Shown in pieces: positions 1,692-64,000 of a stretch of DNA of 64,000 nt. A program made the translations under genes and the position numbers. Where the stretch lies: positions 8,137 through 72,136 of the forward strand of contig DAHXLK010000017.1 of NCBI GenBank assembly GCA_027366035.1, written 5' to 3'. How positions within the stretch are numbered: position 1 is the stretch's first letter; each line of letters opens with the position of its first letter. This DNA is from Chlamydiota bacterium (GTDB taxonomy: Bacteria; Chlamydiota; Chlamydiia; Chlamydiales; SM23-39). The notes beneath the pieces were generated by a model. It worked only from the letters and a program-made list of their open reading frames with translations. It searched no databases and was not told the DNA's origin.

Positions 1692-1856
1692 GGGACTGTT
1701 GAAATCTCCGCTTTGTAGTTAAAATTTGAGCCTTGCAAAGCCGGTTTGATTTTTTTGAAAGTGACATATCCTGCTAAGGTATAGGCGCTTTTAAAAAGAT
1801 CAAATCCGGGGAAGCAAGGCTCAAATTTTAACCAAATGGGAGATCGAAACAGTCCC
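1692..1856 (+). repeat. Family-A long-palindrome MITE-like element, copy A1
   Basis: gggactgttgaaatctcc...ggagatcgaaacagtccc terminal inverted repeats. Perfect 18-nt inner IR ttaaaatttgagccttgc (1719-1736) / gcaaggctcaaattttaa (1814-1831). Flanked by the direct repeat TTCAT (1687-1691 and 1857-1861). Confidence 0.9.
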
Positions 1857-8272: not shown

Positions 8273-8971
8273 ATGCAAGAAGTATATGATGTCCCGTATA
8301 AGCCTTATGATTTGGTGCAGTCGGGCTATCTTCATGGGATTTCCAAACATCCGGACCTTCCACTTGTCGATCTCTTTCATCTGATGCATGCTATCTATAA
8401 AAAAGAAGTGGGGGCATACATAAGAAAAAAACTTCCCAACTATAAACTTCTAGCTATAGATAGACCTAAGCCTCGTGGAATTAAGGGGTGTATCGAAGGA
8501 GGCTGGAAGATGATTTTAGTTAGAAATAACATAACTAGCGAGTGTATTGCCGTCTGGTCCGGTGTGGATAATTGGGAGACCGATATTATAAAAACAATCG
8601 TGTATTCATTTGCTGCCCCCGAGGCGTTAATTCAAGAGATGGGGAAATGTTTAGAGCATTGGCAAGAGAAGTTTGGATATATTGGAGTGTTTTTAGGGCA
8701 TTCATTTGGAGGATATTTTGTCTCAAGGGTAAAGCCGGAGAGTGAGTGGCCCGGAAGGTGGAGGATTACTGTCAACGCCCAAGAGCCTTTGTACGAGGGA
8801 AAAAGTCTCCACTTCCGATGTCAAGGAGACCTCCTTTCCTGGGTACTTAACAGTAGAAAAAAATATTGGACCCTGGAAGATGGTTCAAAAGGCCACAGTA
8901 TCAAAGATCTATACCATGTGATCCGAGATGAGGGGATTACTTGGGAGACTATTATACTTCGCCACTCTTAA
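8273..8971 (+). CDS. Hypothetical protein with class-3-lipase-like alpha/beta-hydrolase motifs
   Basis: 232-aa ORF. Nucleophile elbow GHSFGG. Upstream IAVWSGVDNWETD resembles the lipase_3 'AFRGT..W..D' block. Later QGDLL and GHS..DLYH are possible Asp/His. Confidence 0.5.
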   Translation: MQEVYDVPYKPYDLVQSGYLHGISKHPDLPLVDLFHLMHAIYKKEVGAYIRKKLPNYKLLAIDRPKPRGIKGCIEGGWKMILVRNNITSECIAVWSGVDNWETDIIKTIVYSFAAPEALIQEMGKCLEHWQEKFGYIGVFLGHSFGGYFVSRVKPESEWPGRWRITVNAQEPLYEGKSLHFRCQGDLLSWVLNSRKKYWTLEDGSKGHSIKDLYHVIRDEGITWETIILRHS

Positions 8972-9458: not shown

Positions 9459-9624
9459 GGGACTGTTGCAATCTTTAGCTTTGCCGTTAAAATTTGAGCC
9501 TTGCAAAGTCGGTTTGATTTTTTTGAAAGCGACATATCCTACTAAGGTATAGGAACTTTTAAAAAAATCAAATTCGAAGAAGCAAGGGTAAAATTTTAAC
9601 TAACCGGGAGATTTCAACAGTCCC
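9459..9624 (+). repeat. Family-A element, copy A2
   Basis: Full-length alignment to A1. Flanked by the perfect direct repeat GTAAA (9454-9458 and 9625-9629). Confidence 0.9.
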
Positions 9625-9656
9625 GTAAATAGTAAAATTTTTATTCCGGTAGCATG

Positions 9657-9822
9657 GGGCTATTTTGATCTTCGCATAGCTTTTAAAATTTGAGCTTTGC
9701 AAGGCCGGTTTGATTTTTTTTTGAAAATGACATATCCTACCAAGGTATAGGCACTTTTAAAAAGATCAAATTCGGGAAAGCAAGGGTAAAATTTTAACCA
9801 AATGGGAGATTTCAACAGTCCC
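9657..9822 (+). repeat. Family-A element, copy A3 (left terminal repeat decayed)
   Basis: Aligns to A1/A2 from ttaaaatttgagctttgc to agatttcaacagtccc. The left end has degenerated to gggctattttgatcttc. It lies 32 bp after A2 and ends 1 nt before the ychF stop codon. Confidence 0.85.
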
Positions 9823-20693: not shown

Positions 20694-20859
20694 GGGACTG
20701 TTTCGATTTCCCATTTGGTTAAAATTTTACCCCTGCTTCTTCGGATTTGACTTTTTTAAAAGTGCCTATACCTTAGTAGGATATGTCACTTTCAAAAAAA
20801 TCAAACCGACTTTGCAAGGCTCAAATTTTAACGGCAAAGCTAAAGATTTCAACAGTCCC
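20694..20859 (-). repeat. Family-A element, copy A4 (inverted orientation)
   Basis: Reverse complement aligns end to end with A2. gggactgtttcgatttcc...aaagatttcaacagtccc. Confidence 0.9.
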
Positions 20860-25245: not shown

Positions 25246-25410
25246 GGGACTGTTGAAATCTCCCATTTGGTTAAAATTTTACCCTTGCTTCTCCGAATTT
25301 GATGCTTTTAAAAGTGCTTATACCTTGGTAGGATATGTCGCTTTCAAAAAAATCACACCGGCTTTGAAAGGTTCAAATTTTAACGGAAAAGCGAAGATCG
25401 AAACAGTCTC
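25246..25410 (-). repeat. Family-A element, copy A5 (inverted orientation, right terminus slightly decayed)
   Basis: gggactgttgaaatctcccatttggttaaaattttacccttgc...gaagatcgaaacagtctc aligns to the reverse complement of A2/A3. Confidence 0.88.
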
Positions 25411-51142: not shown

Positions 51143-51648
51143 GAAAAGAAAAACAATTTTTACTGGATGATTTCGAAGAAAAGTTGCAAGGGGCAAAGGC
51201 GATTATCGTTGCGAAATATAGTAGTATTGAGCCCAATCTTTCGTGGCAATTTCGAAAGGACCTTGCTCAGTGTGACAGCTCTCTTACTGTGGTAAAGAAA
51301 AGTATATTTTTAAAAGCTTTAAAGAAAATTGGCCTGACGACTACAGAGGAAGCTCTTGAAGGAAATATAGGGTTTATCACTTCCGAAGAAGATCCCCTTC
51401 CGATGACCAAAGTCGTTAGCAAATTTATAAGCGATTACGAAGGGAAACTAGAGGTTCTTTTTGGCCGAGTTGAAGGGCAAAAAATTACCGGTAAAGATGT
51501 GCAGGTGCTAGCCAAACTCCCCCCTCTCAATGAAATGAGAGCTATTTTCTTAGGTCTCTTAACAGCTCCGATGAGCGGGGTTCTGAGTGTTATGGAGAGT
51601 GTGCTAACTAGCCTAGTCTATGCGATAGAAAATAAATCAACTAAATGA
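51139..51648 (+). CDS. rplJ: 50S ribosomal protein L10
   Basis: Start taken at MRKEKQ (ATGA overlap with the rplA stop). Position between rplA and rplL. Confidence 0.9.
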
Positions 51649-51658
51649 GGTAAAAGCC

Positions 51659-52057
51659 GTGAGTACGCAAAATATTGAAGAAATTGTAGAGCTACTAAGT
51701 AAGCTCTCTGTCTTGGATTTATCCAAATTAAAGACTGCTTTAGAGGATAAATGGGGAGTAAAAGCTGCCGCTGCCGTTGCTGTAGCCCAAGCTCCTCAAG
51801 CAGCTGTCGGAGAAGCAGCCCCTGCCGCTTCCGAATCTACCGACTTTAAAGTAACTTTGGAGGAAGCTGCCAATGATAAAAAAATTGGGGTGATTAAAGT
51901 TGTCAGAGAGGTGACGGGCCTTGGGCTCAAAGAGGCGAAAGATATCGTTGAAGGAGCCCCAAAAGTTTTGAAAGAGTCTGCTCCTAAAGCAGAGGCAGAA
52001 GAGATTTCAAAAAAGATCTCGGCCGCTGGCGGAAAAGTCTCTCTTAAAGGTCTATAA
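51659..52057 (+). CDS. rplL: 50S ribosomal protein L7/L12
   Basis: 132-aa ORF (GTG start). Ala-rich hinge. C-terminal domain [27 protein letters not shown]. Confidence 0.97.
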
Positions 52058-52085
52058 AGAATTTACTTTAAAGGAGGGATAGTAG

Positions 52086-55000
52086 ATGCAGAAAAAACTG
52101 CCTAAGCGTTTGAGCTTCAAGAAAAAAGAGGAGATTATCGATCTCCCTAACCTTATAGAAATACAGGTCAAATCTTATACCCAGTTCTTGCAAGCCAATC
52201 TCTTGCCTCATGAAAGAGAATCTATCGGGTTACAGGAAGTCTTTAACGAGATTTTTCCGATCAAATCTTATGATGAAAAGACTTCTTTGGAGTTTCTTTC
52301 TTATAATTTGGGAGTTCCCAAATATACTCCTGATGAGAGTATTCGTAGAGGCATCACTTATAACGTCACTTTAAAGGTAAAGTTTCGCCTTACCGACGAA
52401 ACGGGTATTAAAGAAGAAGAGGTCTATATGGGGACAATCCCGGTAATGACCGAAGAGGGGACTTTTATTATAAATGGAGCAGAAAGGGTCATTGTCTCTC
52501 AACTACACCGATCTCCCGGTATATCTTTTGAGCAAGAGAGGCACTCCAAGGGAAACATCCTCTACTCTTTTAGAATTATCCCTTATCGAGGGAGCTGGTT
52601 AGAAGCATCCTTTGATATCAACGACATGATCTATGTCTATATGGATAGAAAAAAGAGGAGGAGGAAGATTTTGGGAACATCTTTTATCCGTACCCTTGGT
52701 TATTCTAGTGATGCCGATATTATCGAAGAATTTTTTGACACGCAGAAGGTAAAGATCAAAAATGAGAAAGATTTTATCAAGCTCGTTGGAAAAATTTTAG
52801 CCGAAGATGTGATCGATGAGACCTCTGGGCTCGTTTATGGAAAGGCAAAAGAGAAACTGACGACCGCAATGCTCAAACGAATGTTGGATAGTGGTATTCA
52901 AGCGATTCGGATTGCCGAAAATGCTGATGAGACACATCCGATTATCCGAATGCTTGCTAAAGATACGACAGATTCTTATGAGTCTGCCTTGAAAGATTTT
53001 TATAGAAAAATCCGTCCCGGTGAGCCGGCAACCCTTGCAAATGCTAGATCGACGATCATGCGCCTTTTCTTCGATTCTAAACGGTATAATTTGGGAAAAG
53101 TCGGTCGTTACAAACTTAACCGAAAATTAGATTTAGGTGTTTCGGATGAAGAGCTAAACAACATTACTTTAAGAAAAGAAGACATCATCCATGCGATTAA
53201 ATACCTCATTCGTTTACGAATGGGGGATGAGAAAGCGTTGATTGATGATATTGACCATTTGGGCAACCGTAGGGTTCGCTCGGTTGGAGAGCTCATACAA
53301 AATCAATGTCGTATTGGACTGGCCCGTATGGAAAAGATTATTAAAGAGAGGATGAATCTTTTTGATTTTTCTTCCGACACCATGACACCGGGGAAAATTA
53401 TTTCTGCCAAAGGATTAGTAGGAGTATTGAAAGATTTTTTTGGAAGATCTCAGCTCTCTCAATTTATGGATCAGACCAATCCGATTTCAGAACTTACCCA
53501 TAAAAGGAGGCTTTCTTGTCTAGGACCCGGAGGGTTGAATCGCGAGCGTGCAGGCTTTGAAGTTCGTGACGTGCATGCCTCTCACTATGGGAGAATTTGT
53601 CCTATTGAAACCCCTGAAGGGCCAAATATCGGTCTTATTACCTCCCTTTCTACTTTTGCTAAAATCAACGAATTTGGTTTTATCGAAACTCCTTATAGGA
53701 TAGTCCGTGAAGGGGTGGTTACCGATGAGATCGAATACATGACGGCAGATCAGGAAGAAAATTATGTTATTGCCCAAGCTTCTGTAGAATTAGATGAGCA
53801 CAACTGTTTTGTCAATAAAATTTGCTGGGGAAGATCAAAAGGGGAACCGAATGAAGTAGATACCTCTTTAGTGACCCATATGGATGTATCTCCCAAGCAG
53901 ATTGTCTCGATTGTGGCAGGTCTTATCCCTTTTTTAGAACACGACGACGCTAACCGGGCACTTATGGGCTCGAACATGCAAAGGCAAGCGGTCCCTCTCA
54001 TGAAGACTGAAGCGCCTATTGTAGGGACCGGTTTAGAAGCTAGGACGGCGAAAGACTCCGGAGCTGTTGTCATTGCAGAGGAAGATGGAATTATCGATTA
54101 TGTGGATGGGTTTAAAATTGTCATCGCTCCTAAAGATAATCCGATGAACAAGCGGACCTATCCATTAAAAAAGTTTATGCGTTCTAATGCAGGAACCTGT
54201 ATCAACCAAACTCCCCTTTGTCACGTAGGAGAAAAGATACGAGCGGGGGATGTGATTGCGGATGGCCCTGCTACCGAAAATGGGGAGATGGCTTTGGGGA
54301 AAAACGTCCTGGTCGCTTTTATGCCGTGGTGTGGCTATAACTATGAAGACGCTATCATCATCTCTGAAAAACTGATTAAAGAAGATACCTATACTTCGAT
54401 CTATTTAGAAGAATTTGAACTCACAGCCAGAGATACCAAGCTAGGGAAAGAGGAGATCACCCGTGATATCCCTAATGTCTCAGAAGAGGCCCTTGCTAAT
54501 CTAGGGGAAGATGGGATTATTCGCATTGGGGCCGAAGTGAAGCCCGGCGATATCCTAGTTGGAAAAATCACCCCAAAATCGGAAACCGAACTTTCTCCTG
54601 AAGAGAGGCTACTTCGAGCGATTTTTGGTGAAAAAGCAGCCGATGTCCGTGATGCTTCTTTAACGGCTCCTCCGGGGACAGAAGGGGTGGTCATGGATGT
54701 CAAAGTTTTTTCCAGAAAAGACCGTCTTTCCAAAACTGATGACGAACTTGTCGAAGAAACGAGCCGGATCAAAGATATCCATATCGATTACAAGACAAAA
54801 GAGGCCGAACTCCAAATGGAATTTCATGAAAAGTTAGGAGCGTTGTTATTAGGAGAAAAGCTCCTTCATCCGATCCTTCATCGAAAAACAGCCGAGGTGA
54901 TTATCGCAGAAGGGGCGGAGATCACCCAAGAGATGTTAGAGGTCCTAGAAAGTGAAAAGGCCGAAGATCTCATCATGCCGGAGCAAGAGCTGTATACGGA

Positions 55001-55862
55001 ACTAAGGAAGATCCTCCGTCAATATGACCACGACTTGCAAGTGCTGCAAACAGCTCATAAGGCAGAAATTGAATTTACTCGAAAAGGGGATACCGATTTA
55101 GACCCGGGAGTTATTCGTCAAGTGAAAGTTTATATCGCTACCAAGAGAAAGTTGCAGGTAGGAGATAAAATGGCCGGACGCCATGGCAATAAAGGGGTTA
55201 TCGCTAAACTAGTCCCAGAAGCCGACATGCCTTACCTTGAAAATGGAGATACAATAGAGATCATCTTAAATCCACTTGGCGTACCTTCTCGTATGAATAT
55301 GGGGCAGCTTTTAGAGACTCATCTTGGCTACGCGGCTAAAAAGGCAGGGATCTATGTGAAGAGTTCTGTCTTCGAAGGATTCCCTGAGTCCCGCATCTGG
55401 GAAATGATGAAAGAGCAAAAGATCTCAGAAGATGGAAAAATGTATCTTTACGATGGTAGGTCGGGAGAGAGATTTGATAGCCGTGTCGTTGTAGGCTATA
55501 TCTACATGTTAAAGCTAAGCCATCTGGTTGCCGATAAGATTCACGCCAGGTCCATTGGTCCCTACTCTCTTGTCACTCAACAGCCTCTTGGAGGTAAAGC
55601 ACAAATGGGGGGACAGCGATTTGGAGAAATGGAGGTATGGGCATTAGAGGCTTATGGCGCCGCCCATCTATTACAGGAGATGCTCACCGTTAAATCGGAC
55701 GATGTAGCCGGAAGAACCCGTATCTATGAATCCATTGTCAAAGGAGAGAATACTTTGAACGCCGGGACGCCGGAATCGTTCAATGTACTTGTGAAGGAGA
55801 TGCAAGGATTATGCCTAGATATTCGAACAGAATATGTTGAAGAAGGAGCTGTAAATGTTTGA
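52086..55862 (+). CDS. rpoB: DNA-directed RNA polymerase subunit beta
   Basis: 1258-aa ORF with conserved blocks ([42 protein letters not shown]). Confidence 0.99.
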
Positions 55863-58800
55863 TGAGGATTTCAAAGGTTCTCAATTTGATAAGTTGACCA
55901 TCAAGATCGCCTCTGAAGATGTCATCCGAACCGGTTGGTCTCGTGGAGAGATTAAAAAACCGGAGACCATCAACTATAGGACGTTTAAACCTGAAAAAGG
56001 GGGCCTTTTTTGTGAAAAGATTTTTGGTCCTACCAGAGATTGGGAGTGTGCTTGCGGTAAATATAAAAAGATCAAGCACAAAGGAATTGTTTGCGATCGT
56101 TGCGGCGTCGAGGTGACCCTTTCGAAAGTAAGAAGGGAGAGGATGGCTCATATCGATCTTGCCGTTCCTGTCGTCCATATCTGGTTTTTTAAAACGATGC
56201 CTTCTAGGATCGGCAATATTCTAGGTCTTTCCACTTCTGATTTGGAGCGTGTTATCTATTATGAAGAGTTTATCGTCACCGATCCCGGCAGGACCGATCT
56301 TACCAAAAAACAGCTTCTTAATGACAACGAATTCCGCGAAGCGCAAGATAAATGGGGAACCGACTCTTTTACAGTTAAAATGGGGGGAGAGGCGATTGCC
56401 GAGCTCCTCAAAACCGAAGATCTATCCCTTTTAATCCTTGATCTCAAAGAAAAGCTCAAGAAAACAAAATCGATGCAAGCAAGGGTAAAGCTTGCTAAAC
56501 GGTTAAAGATTATCGAAGGTTTTCAATCCTCCCCTAACAAATCCGACTGGATGGTCCTTTCCTGCGTTCCTGTCATCCCTCCCGACCTTAGACCTTTGGT
56601 CCCTCTCGATGGAGGAAGATTTGCTACTTCAGATCTCAACGATCTTTATCGAAGAGTTATCAACCGGAACAATCGTTTGAAATCGATTCTCAAGCTCAAA
56701 ACTCCCGATGTGATCATCCGCAATGAAAAGAGGATGCTCCAAGAGGCAGTCGATGCACTTTTCGATAACGGAAGGCATGGGCATCCTGTGATGGGAGCAG
56801 GGAATAGGCCGCTAAAAGCCCTGTCTGAGATGTTGAAAGGTAAGCAAGGGAGGTTTCGACAAAACTTGCTAGGAAAAAGGGTCGATTATTCCGGAAGGTC
56901 GGTCATCGTGGTAGGTCCTGAGCTTAGGTTTAACCAGTGTGGATTGCCAAAGCAGATGGCTCTAGAGCTTTTTGAACCCTTCATCGTAAAAAGGCTCAAA
57001 GATTTAAACTATGTCTATACCATCCGTAGTGCTAAAAAGATGATCCAAAAACAATCGACAGAAGTTTGGGATGTGTTGGAGGAGATCATCAAAGGGCATC
57101 CCGTACTCCTCAACCGGGCCCCTACCCTTCACCGTTTAGGGATCCAGGCATTTGAACCTGTCCTTATCGAAGGGAAAGCGATCCGTATCCATCCTTTAGT
57201 AACACCGGCTTTTAATGCCGATTTTGATGGAGATCAGATGGCGGTCCATGTCCCTCTATCGATTGAAGCCCAGTTGGAGACCAAGCTCCTTATGATGGCG
57301 CCGGATAATATTTTCCTCCCTTCTTCAGGGAAGCCGGTAGCTGTTCCTAGTCAAGATATGATTTTAGGCCTCTATTATTTGATGCATGATCCTATCGTGA
57401 TTGCTGAGGAACATGGGCGTAAGACCAAAATCTTCTCTTCTCCGGCGGAGGTTCTAGTCGCTATGGATGCTTCCGGAAGCTATAACTGGTTTAACGGAAA
57501 GGATAATCTGACAAGGCGTGATGATTTAGGCTTTGGGATCCATATCCATGAGAAAATCAAAGTGCTTATCGATGGTGGCATTATTGAGACTACCCCCGGA
57601 AGGGTTCTTTTCAATACGATTGTCCCTAAAGAGTTGGGCTTTCAAAACTATGCTCTGCGTAAGAAAAGACTTTCCGAGCTAGTTTTAGAATGTAATAAGA
57701 AGGTAGGACTAGAGGCAACGGTCCAATTTCTCGATAATATGAAGGCTCTTGGTTTTGCGAAGGCAACCAAAGCGGCCCTTTCCATGGGCGTCTGCGATGT
57801 CCGTATCCCTGCGAACAAACAAAAAATAATTGATGAAGCCAACAAACGGGTGGCCAAAGTAAAAAAACAATATGATGATGGGATTATTACTGAAAAAGAG
57901 CGAAAATCCAAAATTATCAGTATTTGGACCGAAGTTACCGACTACCTCTCTGAAGAGTTATTCAAACTCTTAAAAGAGGTCTCAGCAGATGGGCTTAATC
58001 CCCTTTATTTGATGATGGATTCGGGAGCACGTGGTAACCGTTCGCAGGTACAACAGCTGGGTGCCCTTCGTGGATTGATGGCAAAACCTTCTAGAGAGAT
58101 CATCGAATCTCCTATTACGGCAAATTTCCGTGAAGGGTTAACGGTATTGGAATATTGGATTTCTACTCACGGTGCCCGTAAAGGTCTTGCCGATACGGCC
58201 CTAAAGACTGCCGACTCCGGATATCTTACCCGAAGACTTGTCGACGTATCGCAAGATGTGATCATCACCGAAGAAGATTGTGGTACCTTAAATGGGATAG
58301 AAGTTTCTGCGATCAAACAAGGACAAGAGGAGCTCCTCCCTTTAAAAGACCGTATTTTTGGAAGGGCTACTTGCGATCCTATCTTCCTTCCGGGGGATAG
58401 TACCAAACAGCTTGCTAAAACTAACGAAGTCCTTACTATGCTCCAATCCGAAGCTATTGATGATGCAGGTATTGAAACCATCCGTATCCGTTCTGTCCTT
58501 ACTTGTGAGAGTAGGAGGGGTGCCTGTGCAAAATGTTACGGCCTGAATCTGGCAACAGGGAATTTGGTAGGCTTTGGCGAAGCGGTGGGGATTATCGCTG
58601 CCCAATCGATTGGGGAACCCGGCACACAGCTTACGATGAGGACCTTCCACTCCGGAGGTATTGCCTCTACTTTGTTAAGTCCCGAACTTCTCTCTGATTT
58701 TGATGGTATTTTAGTCTATATCGATTTGAGAACGGTACAAGATGAAGAAGGGCATTGGTTAGCTCTTAATAAAAATGGCTCTATCCATATCGTCCGGGAT

Positions 58801-60033
58801 GAAAATAGGACATTAGAAGAGTATAAAAAACTTCTCAATATGAAATCGATCGAACCGCTACAAACTTTTAACCTCGAACTAGGTACAAAGATTTTTCTCT
58901 CAGACGGAGCTAAAGTTTCTAAGGGGCAGAAATTGGGAGAATGGGAGCAGCACTCTAGTCCTATCATTTGCGAACGTCCCGGTTATGTCAGATATGATGA
59001 CCTTGTCGAAGGGATCTCTACTCAAAAAGAGATCAATAAGCAGACAGGGCAGGTCGAATTGATTGTCAAACAACACCGAGGAGAGCTCCATCCTCAAATT
59101 GCTATCTATGCCGACTCCCATTATTCGGAGTTGATCGGTACCTACGCGATCCCTTCCGGAGCATCGATTTCAGTGAAGGAGGGACAGCATGTGAAAGTAG
59201 GTATGATCCTTGCCAAACTTTCTAGAGGAGCTATTAAGACAAGAGATATTACCGGAGGTCTTCCCCGTGTCGCCGAGCTTTTCGAAGCTAGGCGACCTAA
59301 AGAGGCTGCTGAAATTGCTAAAATCGACGGTATTGTCGATTTCAAAGGGGTCCAAAAGAACAAGAGGATTTTAGTGGTTAAAGATGAGGTTTCCGGAATG
59401 GAAGAAGAACACCTCATCCCACTTACAAAACATTTGATCATTCAGCGTGGCGATCATGTCGTCAAAGGGCAGCAGCTCACCGAGGGGCTTATCGTCCCGC
59501 AGGAGATTCTCGAAGTCTGCGGCGTTCGCGAATTACAGAAATATATGGTCAACCAGGTTCAAGAAGTCTATCGTCTCCAAGGTGTTGACATCAACGATAA
59601 ACACATCGAAATTATCGTCCGTCAGATGTTGCAGAAGGTGAAGGTTATTGACCCCGGTGACACCACTTTTCTCTATGGGGAAAATGTCGATAAGAAACGG
59701 TTTCATCAATTGAATACTAAGACATTAGGAGAAGGAGGCAAGCCTGCCCAGGCAGCGCCTGTCCTATTAGGTATCACTAAAGCTTCTTTGGGTACCGAGT
59801 CGTTTGTCTCTGCGGCCTCTTTTCAAGAGACAACCCGTGTCCTTACCGATGCGGCTAGTGAAGGAAAGACCGATTATCTCCTTGATTTTAAGGCCAACCT
59901 TATTATGGGGCATATGATTCCCGGTGGTACTGGCTATGAATACCATAAGAAGGTGAAGAAGTTTGTCGACCGTGAGCTGGAAGAAGAGCTCATCTTTGAT
60001 TTTGGCGAAAAGCATGAGGAATCCTTAGTTTAA
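55855..60033 (+). CDS. rpoC: DNA-directed RNA polymerase subunit beta'
   Basis: 1392-aa ORF. Zinc motif CACGKYKK...CDRCGVEV. Catalytic NADFDGDQM. Confidence 0.99.
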
Positions 60034-60198
60034 GGGATTGTTGAAATCTCCGCTTTGCCGTTAAAATTTGAGTCTTGCAAAGCCGGTTTAATTTTTTTGA
60101 AAGTGACATATCCTACTAAGGTATAGGCTCTTTTAAAAAGATCAAATCCGAGGAAGCAAGAGTAAAATTTTAATCAAACGGAAGATCGAAACAATCTT
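60034..60198 (+). repeat. Family-A element, copy A6 (termini slightly decayed)
   Basis: gggattgttgaaatctccgctttgccgttaaaatttgagtcttgc...ggaagatcgaaacaatctt. Starts at the nucleotide after the rpoC TAA. Confidence 0.88.
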
Positions 60199-60260
60199 AG
60201 TATAGCTATTTTCCAAAAAATCAAATCTGGTGAAACTTGGATCTCACAAGGAATCCTGTT

Positions 60261-60293
60261 AAAAAAAAGGACTCTGTAGATACAAAGTCCTTT
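60261..60293 (-). terminator. Rho-independent terminator downstream of the small basic ORF
   Basis: The minus strand reads aaaggact-ttgtatctacag-agtccttt followed by ttttt (8-bp perfect stem, 12-nt loop, T-run). It lies about 27 nt after the ORF stop. Confidence 0.7.
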
Positions 60294-60319
60294 AACATAA
60301 TAATTTCCAAAAAAAGAAA

Positions 60320-60424
60320 TTAGCAAATGCAAGACTTGGATCGTTTCCTAGATTTTCGAGTAGTTTTTCTTGCCGTTTTCCTTTTGACGGAACGTCTTTT
60401 TCCTTTTCCTTTTTTTTTAGCCAT
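60320..60424 (-). CDS. Unannotated 34-aa extremely basic peptide MAKKKGKGKRRSVKRKTARKTTRKSRKRSKSCIC
   Basis: Hand translation. ATG at 60424 is preceded by AAGGAGG (60430-60436) with a 5-nt spacer. TAA at 60320-60322. A terminator follows. 18 of 34 residues are K/R. Missed by the 60-aa ORF cut-off. Confidence 0.6.
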   Translation of the reverse strand: MAKKKGKGKRRSVKRKTARKTTRKSRKRSKSCIC

Positions 60425-60591
60425 AGGTTCCTCCTTTTAACATGAATTATTGGCTCTAATTTAACCAATAATGATGATGTCATTTTAATGCAACAAATTC
60501 ATAAAAATTTTTTTCTGTTTTATTAGAAATAGGTATTTATAAAAGGCTTAAAAATTAAGGGTAACCAAAAACTCTGTGTGCTTTTCATACA

Positions 60592-60758
60592 GGGACTGTT
60601 GAAATCTCCGCTTTGCCGTTAAAATTTGGGCCTTGCTTCCCCGGATTTTATCTTTTTAAAAGTGCCTATACCTTAGTAGAGGATATGTCACTTTCAAAAA
60701 AATCAAACCGACTTTGCAAGGCTCAAATTTTAACCAAATGGGAGGTCGAAACAGTCCC
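60592..60758. repeat. Family-A element, copy A7: outer arms in plus orientation, inner core (60637-60715) inverted
   Basis: The outer parts match A1 collinearly (gggactgttgaaatctccgctttgccgttaaaatttgggccttgc ... gcaaggctcaaattttaaccaaatgggaggtcgaaacagtccc). The segment between the 18-nt inner inverted repeats matches the reverse complement of the A1 core. Confidence 0.88.
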
Positions 60759-60788
60759 TTTATACTCGAGAGCGCCATCCGGAGATTT

Positions 60789-62591
60789 TTATGTTTTCGT
60801 CTTTCTTTTGTAATAGGAAAAACTTAAGAAAAAGCAAATGATTGCAACTATCCATACAACAATATTCGGTAGAGTGATCCAAGAATAGCCGGGTTCAGGT
60901 AAAGACCCCATCCGCGGAGATAAAGGCCAAAACAATAGGTTGACTCCACCACGAATGTTTCCTTGAGGGACAAAACCAAAGACGCGGCTATCTGAACTTC
61001 TGGCATGGTTATCCCCTAAAACAAGGTACATATTCTCAGGAACGTACAGACCGTTTTTCTTCAAAAGCTCTACCTGCAGCTTCCCATCCTTAATAGGGGA
61101 GCCAAGGTCGATGAAAGGGGTATCTGTTGCCTTTTCTTTTTGGATAAAGGATTGTAGTTCAGGGTCATTTTCTTGATAAATAGGATGTCCCATAGCATAA
61201 AGATCGTGATCGCGGAAGTAGATGTATCGAGAAGGTCTAGCGATATGGAGGTGAAATTCATTGCCTAAATTATAAAAGAGCTGTAAACGTTCCGGCGTAC
61301 GGAGATAAAGAGGATGATTTTTTGCCAGCTCCTTTGTGATGCTAGACCAGAGAACCTTATAGGCTTTCCCATCTTGAAACTCATAGGTCCCATCAGGGAC
61401 GCCTTCTAGTTTGGGAAGAAACTCTTCCGCTACATCTCGGGAACCATAGAGAGAGGCCCGCCCATTTTTCACGACGAATCTTGCTGTATAAAGGGACAAA
61501 AATAGCCGGTCGATCGCCTTGTCCGACAAGGGTAGGATAGAGGTGGTATAGCTAAGGCCCGGACGGACCCTTCCATATTCATCACGGATAATTTTTACGG
61601 GGTGCATCGAAGGGTGATGGGTAATTTCCAAAAATAGGGGGGCTTTTTCTTGAGAGGTAATCTCTTTCCCGGAAACGATTTTTCCCATCCCATAGTTTTT
61701 AAAACCCCAAAGATCACCATAGGTATTGGGTACTACACTAGCCGATCCGGCTCTCGGTATGGGGAGCATTTCTCCAGAACCTTCCCCAAAAACCGAAGCG
61801 GTTAGTTTAGCGATCGGTTCATTCATTTGGTAGAGAGTCGCAGAGGTAAAAATCCCGTGAGTGGCCATCTGCCCCGTCTTCACCTTCCCATCAAAATGGA
61901 TAAAAGGGATGTGCTCCATTTCATGAAACCATGATCTTTCTTTATATTCGGTAATCTCGTTCCCGTCACGGTCTATCCCATAGAGGAGGCCGCCATAAAA
62001 ATAAAGGAGGTCGCCTGGCTTGGCTATGAGCCTTTTTACAAACTGCTTTTTCCCCGGAATGAGATAAAAATACATCGTATTCACATCAGGGATATCCATA
62101 TCCTCCCCTGTAAATACGACTATCTGTCCTCTTTTTATAAGGTCAGATCCAAAATAAAATTGCGAAGTACTCAGAGGGACATTCAAACCAAAATCAGTTT
62201 TGAAAACGAAGACAAAGTCTTGTTCTTTCAAAGTGGGACGCATAGAACCGGTAGGAATTACATAGGGTTCAAACCATGTCTGCCGAATAAGGATGGCAAT
62301 AGCTAAGGCAAACGATAACCCTAGGATAAACTGAAAGGTCTTCTCTAAAGGGGTTCTCGGAAGAAAGAGGGCCATATCTTTTTCTATTTCGCGGCAAAGT
62401 TCTTCTGCTTTTTTCCGCTCTTTTCCCCCTATCGCCTCTTTTAAAGCTTTTAGCTTTTCTTCAAAATGTCTCCCCTTATCGGTAACTTTCTTCTTTTTTC
62501 GGTAGCGTTTACTAGCTGCATGAAGGATTTTGCGACATTTGTGTAAGGAATACATAATTAAGGATATTAGTATAGCGATTTCTCCTACCAC
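60789..62591 (-). CDS. lepB: Signal peptidase I (long chlamydial-type LepB)
   Basis: 600-aa ORF. Catalytic Ser box IPTGSMRPTL. KRLIAKPGD. C-terminal box LGDNHARSSDSR. N- and C-terminal TM segments. Confidence 0.92.
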   Translation of the reverse strand: MVGEIAILISLIMYSLHKCRKILHAASKRYRKKKKVTDKGRHFEEKLKALKEAIGGKERKKAEELCREIEKDMALFLPRTPLEKTFQFILGLSFALAIAILIRQTWFEPYVIPTGSMRPTLKEQDFVFVFKTDFGLNVPLSTSQFYFGSDLIKRGQIVVFTGEDMDIPDVNTMYFYLIPGKKQFVKRLIAKPGDLLYFYGGLLYGIDRDGNEITEYKERSWFHEMEHIPFIHFDGKVKTGQMATHGIFTSATLYQMNEPIAKLTASVFGEGSGEMLPIPRAGSASVVPNTYGDLWGFKNYGMGKIVSGKEITSQEKAPLFLEITHHPSMHPVKIIRDEYGRVRPGLSYTTSILPLSDKAIDRLFLSLYTARFVVKNGRASLYGSRDVAEEFLPKLEGVPDGTYEFQDGKAYKVLWSSITKELAKNHPLYLRTPERLQLFYNLGNEFHLHIARPSRYIYFRDHDLYAMGHPIYQENDPELQSFIQKEKATDTPFIDLGSPIKDGKLQVELLKKNGLYVPENMYLVLGDNHARSSDSRVFGFVPQGNIRGGVNLLFWPLSPRMGSLPEPGYSWITLPNIVVWIVAIICFFLSFSYYKRKTKT

Positions 62592-62839
62592 GTCAATGTT
62601 GAAAGTTTGTCGATAAGTCGAAAGAAGAGCTCTATTTGTTTTTTTAAATCGCTGAATTGCAAATAGAAAGAGGAACAGAGGAGAAGCGTCTTAAATTATT
62701 AAAAATAAATGAGTTATTTCTGAATTTCCCGTTAGTTGTTATTTTTTTACTTCGATTAATGGCTTATTTTGAAAATTATGTTCATAACTTGTTAAGGAAA
62801 ATATTAAGTTTTTGCAAAAGAGTAAGGGATTCAAGTCGT

Positions 62840-63710: not shown

Positions 63711-63872
63711 GGGACTGTTTCGATCTTCCATTTGGTTAAAATTTTACCCTTGCTTCCCCGGAGTTGATCTTTTTCAAGCGCCTATACCTTAGTAGGATAT
63801 GTCACTTTCAAAAAAATCAAACCGGCTTTGCTAGGCTCAGATTGTAACCAAATGGGAGATCGAAACAGCCCC
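63711..63872 (-). repeat. Family-A element, copy A8 (core in minus orientation; mosaic subterminal modules)
   Basis: gggactgtttcgatcttccatttggttaaaattttacccttgc...gctaggctcagattgtaaccaaatgggagatcgaaacagcccc. Both subterminal 9-mers are of the ccaaatggg type. Confidence 0.85.
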
Positions 63873-63885
63873 TTTTTAGAGGGAT

Positions 63886-64000
63886 TTATTCTTTTGTCTC
63901 GACATCTTCGACTTCCACCTCCGGTTCCTCTCCTGATTTATTGGGAGTCGGTCCCTCTGCCCCCTTTTTTTGGAGCTCTTCGCCAATCTTCTGGATACTT
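63886..64000 (-). CDS. 3' end of a gene running off the right edge; acidic tail reminiscent of a DnaK C-terminus
   Basis: The minus-strand translation is ...SIQKIGEELQKKGAEGPTPNKSGEEPEVEVEDVETKE*, with stop TAA at 63886-63888. The identification is tentative. Confidence 0.35.
   Translation of the reverse strand, partial: SIQKIGEELQKKGAEGPTPNKSGEEPEVEVEDVETKE

What the first reader, a model, noticed from the sequence alone, without database searches (positions are those of the whole stretch)
60199..60591. Unannotated 34-aa protamine-like basic peptide gene, bracketed by two palindromic elements
The 393-bp segment between copies A6 and A7 contains a compact minus-strand expression unit:
- A consensus Shine-Dalgarno AAGGAGG at 60430-60436.
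- A 5-nt spacer, then the ATG at 60424.
- A 34-codon ORF, MAKKKGKGKRRSVKRKTARKTTRKSRKRSKSCIC, in which 18 of 34 residues are Lys or Arg and the C-terminus is Cys-Ile-Cys.
- A TAA stop at 60320-60322.
- An 8-bp-stem, T-run terminator at 60261-60293.

Codons 3-5 form an A9 homopolymer, a potential slippage tract.

The K/R/T/A-rich composition recalls the chlamydial histone-like proteins (Hc1/Hc2) and nucleic-acid-condensing peptides, but in miniature.

Two elements whose outer arms are in the same orientation flank the segment. It therefore looks like cargo of a composite element.
Basis: seen in the sequence. Interest (0 to 1): 0.6.

Follow-up and report, generated by a model that had tools for sequence, protein, structure and literature searches.

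The report
Orphan tiny polycationic peptide gene candidate
Between rpoC and lepB of an environmental chlamydia lies a neat, unannotated mini-gene for a 34-residue, extremely positively charged peptide; its signals look real, but it has no detectable relative anywhere, so whether it is made and what it does remain unproven.

Summary
On the minus strand there is AAGGAGG (60436-60430), a 5-nt spacer, ATG at 60424, a 34-codon ORF (18 K/R, no D/E/N/Q, C-terminal CIC), TAA at 60322-60320, and a strong intrinsic terminator (60293-60266 plus T8). The 393-bp segment lies exactly between two 165/167-bp palindromic MITE-like repeats.

The purely cationic frame is not explained by A-richness (dinucleotide shuffles, P about 4e-4). 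Full AAGGAGG-ATG-ORF units otherwise mark real gene starts in this window, such as rpoB. In 916 kb of chlamydial DNA it is the only such ORF.

Every homology test was negative: Pfam, NCBIfam, PHROGs, PDB, 1.84 billion representative proteins, the 5.8-billion word-indexed set, and viral and metagenome scans. 74 relatives' rpoC loci and two lepB loci also lack it. The host lineage has no close sequenced relative (lepB at most 54% identical), so conservation cannot be tested.

Membership in Hc1/Hc2 or any ribosomal-protein family is not supported. The "composite-element cargo" idea is not supported either: the repeats look like independent solo insertions, and the junction may even be an assembly join.

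Best reading: a lineage-specific, probably translated nucleic-acid-binding polycation, analogous to ScvA, Hc2 or protamine. Confidence is moderate and interest modest.

The parts
60320..60424 (-). 34-codon ORF (ATG 60424 to TAA 60322-60320) encoding MAKKKGKGKRRSVKRKTARKTTRKSRKRSKSCIC. It is an iterated [K/R]2-3-[S/T]-x motif with a C-terminal Cys-Ile-Cys.
   Evidence: Frame-specific K/R-only content, P about 4e-4. Arg is encoded by AGG, AGA, CGA and CGT across the repeated RK[T/S] units. Synonymous choice favours gene-like usage by about 8 bits over local composition.
60430..60436 (-). Shine-Dalgarno AAGGAGG, 5 nt upstream of the ATG.
   Evidence: Of 44 long ORFs taken at their longest-ORF start, only rpoB and the 23355 gene have the same 7-mer and rpoC has a 6-mer. 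Chance expectation is 0.33 per window for SD+ATG+ORF>=30.
60410..60418 (-). A9 homopolymer (codons 3-5, Lys-Lys-Lys), a possible slippage tract.
   Evidence: A8/A11 give a 43/44-aa peptide in the alternative open frame; A10/A7 give 25/24-aa basic peptides.
60258..60293 (-). Intrinsic terminator: 12-bp stem, 4-nt loop and T8 tail, beginning 27 nt after the stop codon.
   Evidence: the only minus-strand terminator-like site in 59900-60900; the hairpin is in both the MFE and centroid structures, z = -4.2.
60446..60472 (-). 10-bp inverted repeat ATTATTGGTT-N7-AGCCAATAAT, 10-36 nt upstream of the SD. It could be a 5'-UTR hairpin or an operator-like palindrome; its role is unknown.
   Evidence: The hairpin is present in both the MFE and centroid folds. 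The core motif occurs only once in the window.
60473..60591 (-). AT-rich upstream spacer with only weak sigma-70-like candidates (for example TATAAA at about 60541-60536). No consensus promoter was found.
   Evidence: The scan found no minus-strand promoter-like site upstream of the ORF. The sequence was read.
60592..60758 (.). Palindromic MITE-like repeat copy A7 (167 bp), between the lepB stop and the peptide unit. It would be transcribed if lepB transcripts read through.
60034..60198 (.). Palindromic MITE-like repeat copy A6 (165 bp), starting directly after the rpoC stop codon.
   Evidence: The DNA hairpin fold has z = -5.7.
60789..62555 (-). lepB (signal peptidase I, 588 aa as called in public data). 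It lies upstream on the same strand, with no terminator between it and the peptide ORF.
   Evidence: PF10502. Terminator scan.
55855..60033 (+). rpoC, convergent with the peptide unit.

Best explanation
The segment holds a genuine, lineage-specific small gene.

Shown:
- A consensus Shine-Dalgarno at optimal spacing from an ATG.
- A 34-codon frame that encodes only basic and small or hydroxyl residues.
- An efficient-looking intrinsic terminator 27 nt after the stop.

Inferred transcription: the RNA arises either by read-through from lepB, since no terminator intervenes and transcripts would carry the A7 hairpin, or from a weak promoter of its own in the AT-rich spacer. It ends at the terminator before reaching A6 and rpoC.

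Inferred product: a roughly 4-kDa, about +17 charged, intrinsically disordered polycation built from iterated [K/R]2-3-[S/T] units. Such a peptide can hardly do anything other than bind polyanions.

Most likely function: it coats and condenses nucleic acid, either the nucleoid or ribosomal and other RNA, as an abundant counter-ion peptide. This is the way Coxiella ScvA, chlamydial Hc2 and protamines are thought to act. Its C-terminal Cys-x-Cys could allow disulfide cross-linking in an oxidised, EB-like stage.

The A9 tract at codons 3-5 could modulate output by slippage or by ribosome sliding. This is inferred from general knowledge of poly(A) tracts, not tested here.
For: - SD, ATG, ORF and terminator are all present at the stated coordinates.
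- AAGGAGG-N3-9-ATG with an ORF of at least 30 codons occurs 4 times against 0.33 expected. The other three are real or probable gene starts.
- Strong SDs are rare in this genome and are seen at rpoB, rpoC and tuf-type genes.
- The K/R-only frame is not a by-product of A-richness: P = 4e-4 in dinucleotide shuffles and <5e-6 in mononucleotide shuffles. The other two frames contain D/E/N/Q/L/F.
- Arg in the repeated RK[T/S] units uses both AGR and CGN codons and Ser uses only TCY, giving about +8 bits for gene-like synonymous usage.
- It is the only SD-led ORF of 25-60 aa with K+R >= 0.42 and at most 1 acidic residue in 916 kb of chlamydial DNA read in six frames.
- There is no terminator between lepB and the ORF.
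- The A-rich, weakly structured start region leaves the SD largely unpaired in the centroid fold.
- A precedent exists for such peptides in a developmental intracellular bacterium: ScvA (PMC13568565, citing Heinzen et al. 1996).
Against: - No homolog was found by any method. There is no counterpart near rpoC in 74 relatives or near lepB in two relatives.
- As a result there is no evidence of purifying selection.
- Searches with a 34-aa low-complexity query have little power, so absence of hits is weak evidence either way.
- No consensus promoter was found.
- An open frame is cheap in T-poor DNA: 9-29% of shuffles have no stop.
- The finding was picked because it looked extreme, so a look-elsewhere effect applies. 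About 0.3 chance SD-ATG-ORF units are expected per 64 kb overall, and roughly 0.04 in intergenic DNA.
- There are no expression data.
- The function is inferred from composition only.
Confidence: 0.45

Rival explanations
1. It is a chance ORF. A purine-rich, T-poor spacer left at a repeat-rich junction happens to contain an SD-like heptamer, an ATG and an open frame. The terminator belongs to lepB, and no functional peptide is made.
For: - There are no homologs and no conservation.
- An open frame is expected in 9-29% of shuffles, and a second frame (63 aa) is open too.
- About 0.33 SD-ATG-ORF units are expected per window by chance.
- There is no promoter consensus.
- The terminator would in any case be needed for lepB.
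- The finding was selected for looking unusual.
Against: - The frame-specific absence of D/E/N/Q together with 18 K/R has P about 4e-4 even when dinucleotides are preserved.
- The heptamer is intergenic and at ideal spacing, like those at rpoB and the 23355 gene.
- The unit is unique among 916 kb of comparable DNA.
- Arg and Ser codon choices look gene-like.
Confidence: 0.33
2. The functional product is an RNA, either the lepB 3' UTR or a small RNA bounded by the upstream hairpin and the terminator. The ORF is incidental or serves only as a ribosome-loading or stability element.
For: - The segment has a defined 3' end at a strong terminator.
- There is a 10-bp hairpin just upstream of the SD.
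- A long single-stranded A-rich tract is typical of regulator-binding sites.
- No protein homolog was found.
Against: - No Rfam family matches except long-hairpin artefacts on the flanking repeats.
- The overall fold of the unit is not unusually stable (z = -1.8).
- An RNA-only role does not explain the frame-specific amino-acid bias.
- No covariation test is possible.
Confidence: 0.1
3. The peptide is a host-directed or membrane-directed polybasic effector. It would be a secreted NLS/nucleolar-targeting-like peptide, or a polybasic stretch with C-terminal cysteines that become lipidated or cross-linked, similar to polybasic-plus-Cys membrane anchors.
For: - KRKTARKTTRKSRKRSK resembles classical basic nuclear or nucleolar targeting sequences, and RRS/RKS/KRS motifs resemble basophilic-kinase sites. 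This rests on sequence reading and general knowledge only.
- The organism is a chlamydia, a member of an obligately host-associated phylum.
Against: - There is no secretion signal that can be assessed here.
- The C-terminus SCIC is not a CaaX box, because the Cys is not at position -4.
- Nothing in the neighbourhood links the peptide to secretion.
- The idea is purely compositional.
Confidence: 0.07
4. This is the first reader's reading: the 393-bp unit is cargo of a composite mobile element formed by repeats A6 and A7.
For: - Two copies of the same repeat family bracket the segment.
- Their first 38 nt are identical and in direct orientation.
- The locus is a synteny break relative to other chlamydiae.
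Against: - The repeats are 165-bp non-coding palindromes with 8 copies in 64 kb, mostly solo, and one tandem pair has nothing between its members.
- Several copies have their own 5-bp direct flanks: TTCAT, GTAAA and TTTTT perfect, A6 AGTTTA/AGTATA and A7 TCATAC/TTATAC imperfect.
- Over most of its length A7 matches A6 better in reverse (85% against 78%).
- No second copy of the 393-bp segment exists in the window, in 79 loci, or in plasmids.
- There is no transposase nearby.
- An independent assembly breaks inside both repeats, so even the linkage is unconfirmed.
Confidence: 0.03

Closest known systems
Coxiella burnetii ScvA (small-cell-variant protein A)
   Same: Both are unusually small, very basic peptides of about 30 aa, encoded by a stand-alone mini-gene in an obligate intracellular bacterium with a developmental cycle. 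ScvA is proposed to help condense chromatin and is restricted to its lineage (PMC13568565, citing Heinzen et al. 1996).
   Different: There is no detectable sequence similarity; no hit was found in 1.84 billion representative proteins. From my own knowledge, ScvA is Arg/Gln-rich, whereas this peptide is Lys/Arg/Ser/Thr-rich and ends in Cys-x-Cys. Expression and DNA binding of the present peptide are untested.
Chlamydial histone-like proteins Hc2 (HctB) and Hc1 (HctA)
   Same: Both come from the same phylum. Both have K/R/T-rich low-complexity sequence built from short iterated basic units. From my own knowledge, Hc2 has Cys residues near its C-terminus, and Hc1/Hc2 condense the nucleoid late in the cycle.
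   Different: The peptide is 5-6 times shorter and has only 2 Ala, whereas Hc2 is Lys/Ala-rich. It matches no Pfam family at E <= 10 and has no detectable homolog of any kind. It works like Hc2 at most by analogy and is not a family member.
Tiny basic ribosomal proteins (bS22, bTHX, bL34, bL36, eL41)
   Same: They share the size range of 25-46 aa, extreme basicity, a strong SD, and stand-alone or operon-end genes. Their function is to neutralise rRNA charge.
   Different: No NCBIfam or Pfam model matches. No chain of any solved ribosome matches; the best PDB hit is a eukaryotic L3 fragment at E = 2.5. Ribosomal proteins are conserved across relatives, whereas this peptide is absent near the syntenic anchors of more than 74 chlamydiae and from all predicted proteomes.
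Protamines (for example mammalian P1)
   Same: Both are short, Arg/Lys-dominated, Ser/Thr-interspersed polycations with cysteines that can cross-link. Protamines condense DNA (my own knowledge).
   Different: Protamines are eukaryotic and Arg-dominated. There is no homology, as the Pfam scan was negative. The resemblance is compositional only.
Bacterial MITE / long palindromic repeat families (Correia/NEMIS, ERIC/IRU, Rickettsia RPE); this entry concerns the flanking elements, not the peptide
   Same: The elements are about 165 bp, non-coding and imperfectly palindromic with terminal inverted repeats. They occur in many intergenic copies, have short AT-rich direct flanks, and probably fold as long RNA hairpins when co-transcribed. 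The general properties of the class are reviewed in PMC10969869 and PMC2229807.
   Different: No sequence relationship to a named family was established. Rfam gives only spurious microRNA-precursor hits far below the gathering scores. The partner transposase is unknown.

Membership tests
Chlamydial Hc1/Hc2 histone-like proteins | Significant match to the family profile or to family members. | tested here: not met
   Pfam-A hmmscan gave 0 families at E <= 10. phmmer against 1.84 billion representatives gave 0 hits at E <= 1e-3. The word-indexed search of 5.8 billion proteins gave none at E <= 10.
Chlamydial Hc1/Hc2 histone-like proteins | A protein of roughly 125-240 aa with long Lys/Ala-rich repeat arrays (my own knowledge). 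| tested here: not met
   The peptide is 34 aa, has 2 Ala, and has only about 5 short [K/R]2-3-[S/T]-x units.
Chlamydial Hc1/Hc2 histone-like proteins | Late-cycle expression and nucleoid condensation. | not testable with these tools
   No expression or binding data are available. No recognisable late (sigma-28-type) or sigma-66 consensus promoter was found (manual reading).
Small ribosomal proteins (bS22, bTHX, bL34, bL36 and others) | Match to a curated family model or to a chain in a solved ribosome. | tested here: not met
   NCBIfam gave only a meaningless 7-bit hit at E = 6.3. Pfam gave none. The best PDB hit is E = 2.5 to a eukaryotic L3 fragment.
Small ribosomal proteins (bS22, bTHX, bL34, bL36 and others) | Conservation across related genomes. 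| tested here: not met
   No counterpart was found in 79 chlamydial loci totalling 852 kb. None was found among predicted proteins of all public genomes and metagenomes. Caveat: only rpoC- and lepB-anchored regions of relatives could be read, not whole genomes.
Coxiella ScvA-type small basic developmental peptide (a functional class, not a homology family) | A stand-alone gene for a very basic peptide of 40 aa or fewer in a developmental intracellular bacterium. | tested here: met
   34 aa, pI about 12. It has its own SD and terminator. The chlamydial host is inferred from rpoB/rpoC/lepB relatives.
Coxiella ScvA-type small basic developmental peptide (a functional class, not a homology family) | Stage-specific synthesis and association with condensed chromatin. 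| not testable with these tools
   This needs transcriptomics or proteomics and localisation in the organism.
Genuine protein-coding gene | Translation-initiation and termination signals in the correct geometry. | tested here: met
   AAGGAGG, 5 nt, ATG; TAA; terminator 27 nt downstream. Enrichment over chance is shown.
Genuine protein-coding gene | Reading frame conserved under purifying selection in relatives. | tested here: inconclusive
   No relative carries the locus. The nearest lepB is 54% identical and the nearest rpoC C-terminus 86%, so there is nothing to compare.
Composite transposon with cargo | Two copies of a mobile element acting as one unit: a target duplication at the outer ends only, a transposase source, and the unit found at more than one site. 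| tested here: not met
   Individual copies carry their own direct flanks. There is no transposase within the region. The segment is single-copy in all data searched.
MITE-like palindromic repeat (flanking elements A6/A7) | Short non-coding element with terminal inverted repeats, many dispersed copies, and short target-site duplications. | tested here: met
   There are 8 copies of 162-167 bp with termini GGGACTGTT...AACAGTCCC, all intergenic. Perfect 5-bp direct flanks occur in 3 copies and imperfect ones in three others.

The most novel reading that the evidence does not exclude
A previously unseen, lineage-specific bacterial "mini-protamine". It would be a 4-kDa, +17 peptide made at high level late in the chlamydial cycle. 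It would compact the nucleoid (or ribosomes) and be locked by disulfides through its C-terminal Cys-x-Cys, paralleling both sperm protamines and the disulfide-cross-linked EB envelope. Output would be tuned by slippage or ribosome sliding on the A9 tract. This would be an independent, non-homologous invention of the ScvA/Hc2 solution, and possibly a de novo gene born in repeat-flanked spacer DNA.
Probability: 0.12. Interest if true: 0.6.

Novelty: new member of a known kind. Interest (0 to 1): 0.3.

Why it matters
If the peptide is real, it adds a third, unrelated example, after Hc1/Hc2 and ScvA, of developmental intracellular bacteria using tiny polycations. It would also be a clean candidate for de novo gene birth in repeat-bordered spacer DNA of an environmental chlamydia.

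It also illustrates a blind spot. A 34-aa K/R peptide is skipped by gene callers: it is absent from about 15 billion predicted proteins. Trypsin would shred it, so standard annotation and bottom-up proteomics would never see it.

If it is not real, it is a useful calibration case. It shows how convincing a chance SD-ORF-terminator unit can look in T-poor DNA.

Tried and rejected
- **Family libraries.** NCBIfam, Pfam and PHROGs scans gave nothing.
- **PDB.** The chain search gave only an E = 2.5 fragment of eukaryotic L3.
- **The search for homologous proteins and the search for related loci.** Both refuse queries under 40 aa. A head-to-tail doubled peptide was accepted. It gave no confirmed locus in viral or metagenome contigs, and 341 word-sharing proteins, none at E <= 10.
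- **Exhaustive phmmer** over 1.84 billion representatives gave 0 hits. Power is low for 34 aa.
- **Exact look-ups.** The peptide is not on record, and neither the peptide nor the 63-aa alternative-frame ORF is in the protein collection.
- **Exact 40-mer in metagenomes:** none.
- **Plasmid blastn** of the 393 bp: none.
- **Relatives.** tblastn of the peptide against 75 loci gave only K/R noise. Weak blastn hits downstream of rpoC in L046, L018 and L013 were read and are chance: no ORF there, or inside tal. A 31-aa gene called downstream of lepB in L078 is unrelated.
- **Sigma-28-like reading** of GCCAATAA upstream was rejected because there is no -35 at the proper spacing (manual reading).
- **Operator test.** The upstream palindrome was tested as a recurrent operator and occurs only once.
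- **Rfam.** The microRNA-precursor hits on the flanking repeats are hairpin artefacts far below the gathering scores.
- **Source organism.** A 2026 Hydra-symbiont paper was checked as a possible source and rejected because its GC is 51% against 43% here.
- **Structure prediction** was not attempted. A 34-aa polycation without an alignment would give a meaningless model.
Full report
**1. The observation**

The region was read on both strands and ORFs were listed.
- AAGGAGG lies at 60436-60430, followed by a 5-nt spacer and ATG at 60424-60422.
- The 34-codon ORF encodes MAKKKGKGKRRSVKRKTARKTTRKSRKRSKSCIC. It has 11 K and 7 R, and no D, E, N or Q. Calculated mass is 3.98 kDa, pI about 12 and charge about +17.5.
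- TAA lies at 60322-60320 and the A9 run at 60418-60410.
- The terminator is better than described. It has a 12-bp stem, a 4-nt loop and a T8 tail at 60293..60258. It is the only minus-strand terminator-like site between 59900 and 60900. It is kept in both the MFE and centroid folds, z = -4.2.
- The two bracketing repeats are 60034-60198 and 60592-60758, so the unique segment is exactly 60199-60591.
- The peptide is not in a collection of about 15 billion predicted proteins or its gene index, so "unannotated" holds.

**2. Context**

- The segment lies between rpoC (55855-60033, +) and lepB (60789-62555, -; PF10502). The peptide ORF is on the lepB strand, downstream of it, and convergent with rpoC.
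- rpoB/rpoC relatives place the genome among environmental Chlamydiota. The best rpoC C-terminus match is 86% identical.
- The lineage is isolated. Apart from a 100% self-match, the best lepB in 5.8 billion proteins is 54% identical.
- In 74 relatives rpoC is never next to lepB. In two lepB relatives the order is CT021-like, then lepB, then variable genes, then ileS. The rpoC|lepB junction is therefore specific to this genome or to this assembly.
- Two contigs of an independent Logan assembly (SRR33270664) are 100% identical to 51548-60068 and 60705-62737, and both stop inside the repeats. The sequence is solid. The linkage rpoC-A6-segment-A7-lepB is not independently confirmed.

**3. Is the ORF more than chance?**

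Openness alone is weak evidence.
- The coding strand is 48% A and 16% T. 9.9% of mononucleotide shuffles and 29% of dinucleotide shuffles have no stop.
- A 63-aa ORF is open in a second frame.

Three other observations go beyond that.
- Frame-specific composition. No stop, K+R >= 17 and no acidic residue together occurred in 0 of 200,000 mononucleotide shuffles and in 4e-4 of dinucleotide-preserving shuffles. Absence of D/E/N/Q alone has P = 8e-4. The other frames read KEKEKDVPSKGKRQEKLLENLGND... and KRKRKKTFRQKENGKKNYSKI.
- The SD. AAGGAGG occurs 33 times in the window. Followed by ATG at 3-9 nt and an ORF of at least 30 codons, it occurs 4 times against 0.33 expected. The other three are the rpoB start, the 23355 gene start, and a probable true start at 8510. 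Of 44 long ORFs taken at their longest start, only rpoB, rpoC and the 23355 gene have an SD core of 6 nt or more.
- Codon choice. The iterated RK[T/S] units encode Arg with AGG, AGA, CGA and CGT, and Ser only with TCY. This gives about 8 bits in favour of gene-like synonymous usage over local composition.

In 916 kb of chlamydial DNA (79 loci plus the window) read in six frames, this is the only SD-led ATG ORF of 25-60 aa with K+R >= 0.42 and at most 1 acidic residue.

Against this, the finding was selected for looking unusual. No consensus promoter lies upstream; only weak candidates are visible. No terminator separates lepB from the ORF, so read-through transcription across repeat A7 is the simplest source of mRNA.

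**4. Homology**

Nothing was found.
- NCBIfam, Pfam-A and PHROGs gave no family.
- The PDB, including all ribosome chains, gave nothing better than E = 2.5.
- Exhaustive phmmer against 1.84 billion representatives gave 0 hits at E <= 1e-3.
- The word-indexed 5.8-billion set, queried with a doubled peptide, gave none at E <= 10.
- Back-translated pattern scans of viral and JGI metagenome contigs gave none confirmed.
- An exact 40-mer in metagenomes gave none, and plasmids gave none.
- Weak blastn hits in relatives were read and dismissed.

The power of these searches for a 34-aa low-complexity query is low, and the lineage has no close relative. The negative result shows an orphan; it does not show a non-gene. 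It does exclude membership in Hc1/Hc2 and in any small ribosomal-protein family. A ribosomal protein should also be conserved among relatives.

**5. The flanking elements and the "cargo" idea**

- The repeat is a 162-167-bp imperfect palindrome with termini GGGACTGTT...AACAGTCCC. It has 8 copies in 64 kb, all intergenic, including one tandem pair 31 bp apart. It folds as a long hairpin, z = -5.7.
- Three copies have perfect 5-bp direct flanks (TTCAT, GTAAA, TTTTT). A6 and A7 have imperfect ones of their own (AGTTTA/AGTATA and TCATAC/TTATAC). This pattern is expected for independent MITE insertions.
- A7 shares an identical 38-nt terminal stretch with A6 in direct orientation, but otherwise matches A6 better in reverse, 85% against 78%. 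This could reflect recombination or gene conversion between copies, or an assembly path through the repeat.
- There is no transposase and no second copy of the 393-bp segment.

The composite-element reading is not supported. The repeats are better seen as the usual occupants of this genome's intergenic spacers, possibly marking a rearrangement breakpoint.

**6. What it most likely is and how it would work**

I favour a real, lineage-specific small gene with a nucleic-acid-binding product, at about 0.45. The mRNA would come from lepB read-through or a weak own promoter. It would be translated efficiently from a consensus SD in an unstructured A-rich start region and terminated at 60258.

- The product is a disordered polycation of iterated [K/R]2-3-[S/T] units. 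Its only plausible activity is electrostatic binding of nucleic acid.
- Because it is lineage-restricted, a nucleoid- or RNA-condensing role like Coxiella ScvA (PMC13568565, citing Heinzen 1996) or chlamydial Hc2 fits better than a core ribosomal role.
- The Cys-x-Cys end could cross-link. This is inference only.
- The A9 tract could cause slippage. A8 would give a 43-aa, largely non-basic peptide.

Rivals are a chance ORF (about 0.33), a functional RNA or 3' UTR (about 0.10), a host- or membrane-directed polybasic peptide (about 0.07), and composite-transposon cargo (about 0.03).

**7. Novelty and score**

Tiny basic peptides (ScvA, Hc2, protamines, bS22/bTHX/eL41) are a known kind. This one would be a new, non-homologous member.

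A specialist would find it plausible rather than startling. Without expression data or relatives it cannot be raised above a well-formed candidate. Interest is 0.3.

The most novel reading not excluded is a disulfide-lockable bacterial mini-protamine born de novo in repeat-flanked spacer DNA. I give it a probability of about 0.12 and an interest of about 0.6 if true.

Noticed in passing
window 1692-1856, 9459-9624, 9656-9822, 20694-20859, 25246-25410, 60034-60198, 60592-60758, 63711-63872: A family of 162-167-bp imperfect palindromes (termini GGGACTGTT...AACAGTCCC) with 8 copies in 64 kb, all intergenic. One is a tandem pair 31 bp apart. 5-bp direct flanks are perfect in 3 copies. This is MITE-like, and no named family or transposase was identified. 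Rfam gives only spurious microRNA-precursor hits.
   Followed up: partly
window 60033-60070 vs 60591-60628; 60592-60758: Repeat A7 is chimeric relative to A6. Their first 38 nt are identical in direct orientation, but the rest of A7 matches A6 better in reverse (85% against 78%). This suggests recombination or gene conversion between copies, or an assembly path through the palindrome.
   Followed up: partly
window 60033/60789 junction; L001, L076: The rpoC-lepB adjacency is absent from 74 chlamydial relatives and from two lepB relatives, which have CT021-like, lepB, variable genes, ileS. Independent Logan contigs (100% identical to 51548-60068 and 60705-62737) stop inside A6 and A7. The junction is either a lineage-specific rearrangement at repeats or an assembly join.
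   Followed up: partly
window 60292-60483 (-) and 60410-60418: A 63-aa ORF is open in a second frame across the same DNA but has no SD. A -1 change in the A9 tract would fuse the peptide's start to that frame, giving the 43-aa MAKKKEKEKDVPSKGKRQEKLLENLGNDPSLAFANFFFWKLLC.
   Followed up: yes
window 60327-60440 (+): Antisense to the basic ORF is a 37-aa hydrophobic ORF (MQDLDRFLDFRVVFLAVFLLTERLFPFPFFLAIGSSF), the mirror image of a Lys-rich frame. No SD is visible upstream, so it is probably meaningless.
   Followed up: no
window 63876-64000 (-): An ORF running off the window end finishes with a K/R-rich tail (...AKSSKKRGQRDRLPINQERNRRWKSKMSRQKNKSL). Its stop codon lies three bases beyond the end of repeat copy 63711-63872. 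The repeat may have reshaped the gene's 3' end.
   Followed up: no
window 8273-8971 (+), internal ATG at 8510: AAGGAGG followed 7 nt later by an in-frame ATG lies inside the longest ORF. The true start of this gene is probably 8510 (153 aa) rather than 8273.
   Followed up: no
window 60446-60472 (-): A 10-bp inverted repeat, ATTATTGGTT-N7-AGCCAATAAT, lies just upstream of the SD. Its core occurs only once in the window, so it is not a recurrent operator here. Its function is unknown.
   Followed up: partly
window 60789-62591 (-): Public gene calls give lepB as 588 aa, starting 12 codons downstream of the longest-ORF GTG. The lineage is isolated: the next-best lepB in 5.8 billion proteins is only 54% identical, although rpoB/rpoC are 80-86% identical to several uncultured chlamydiae.
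   Followed up: yes
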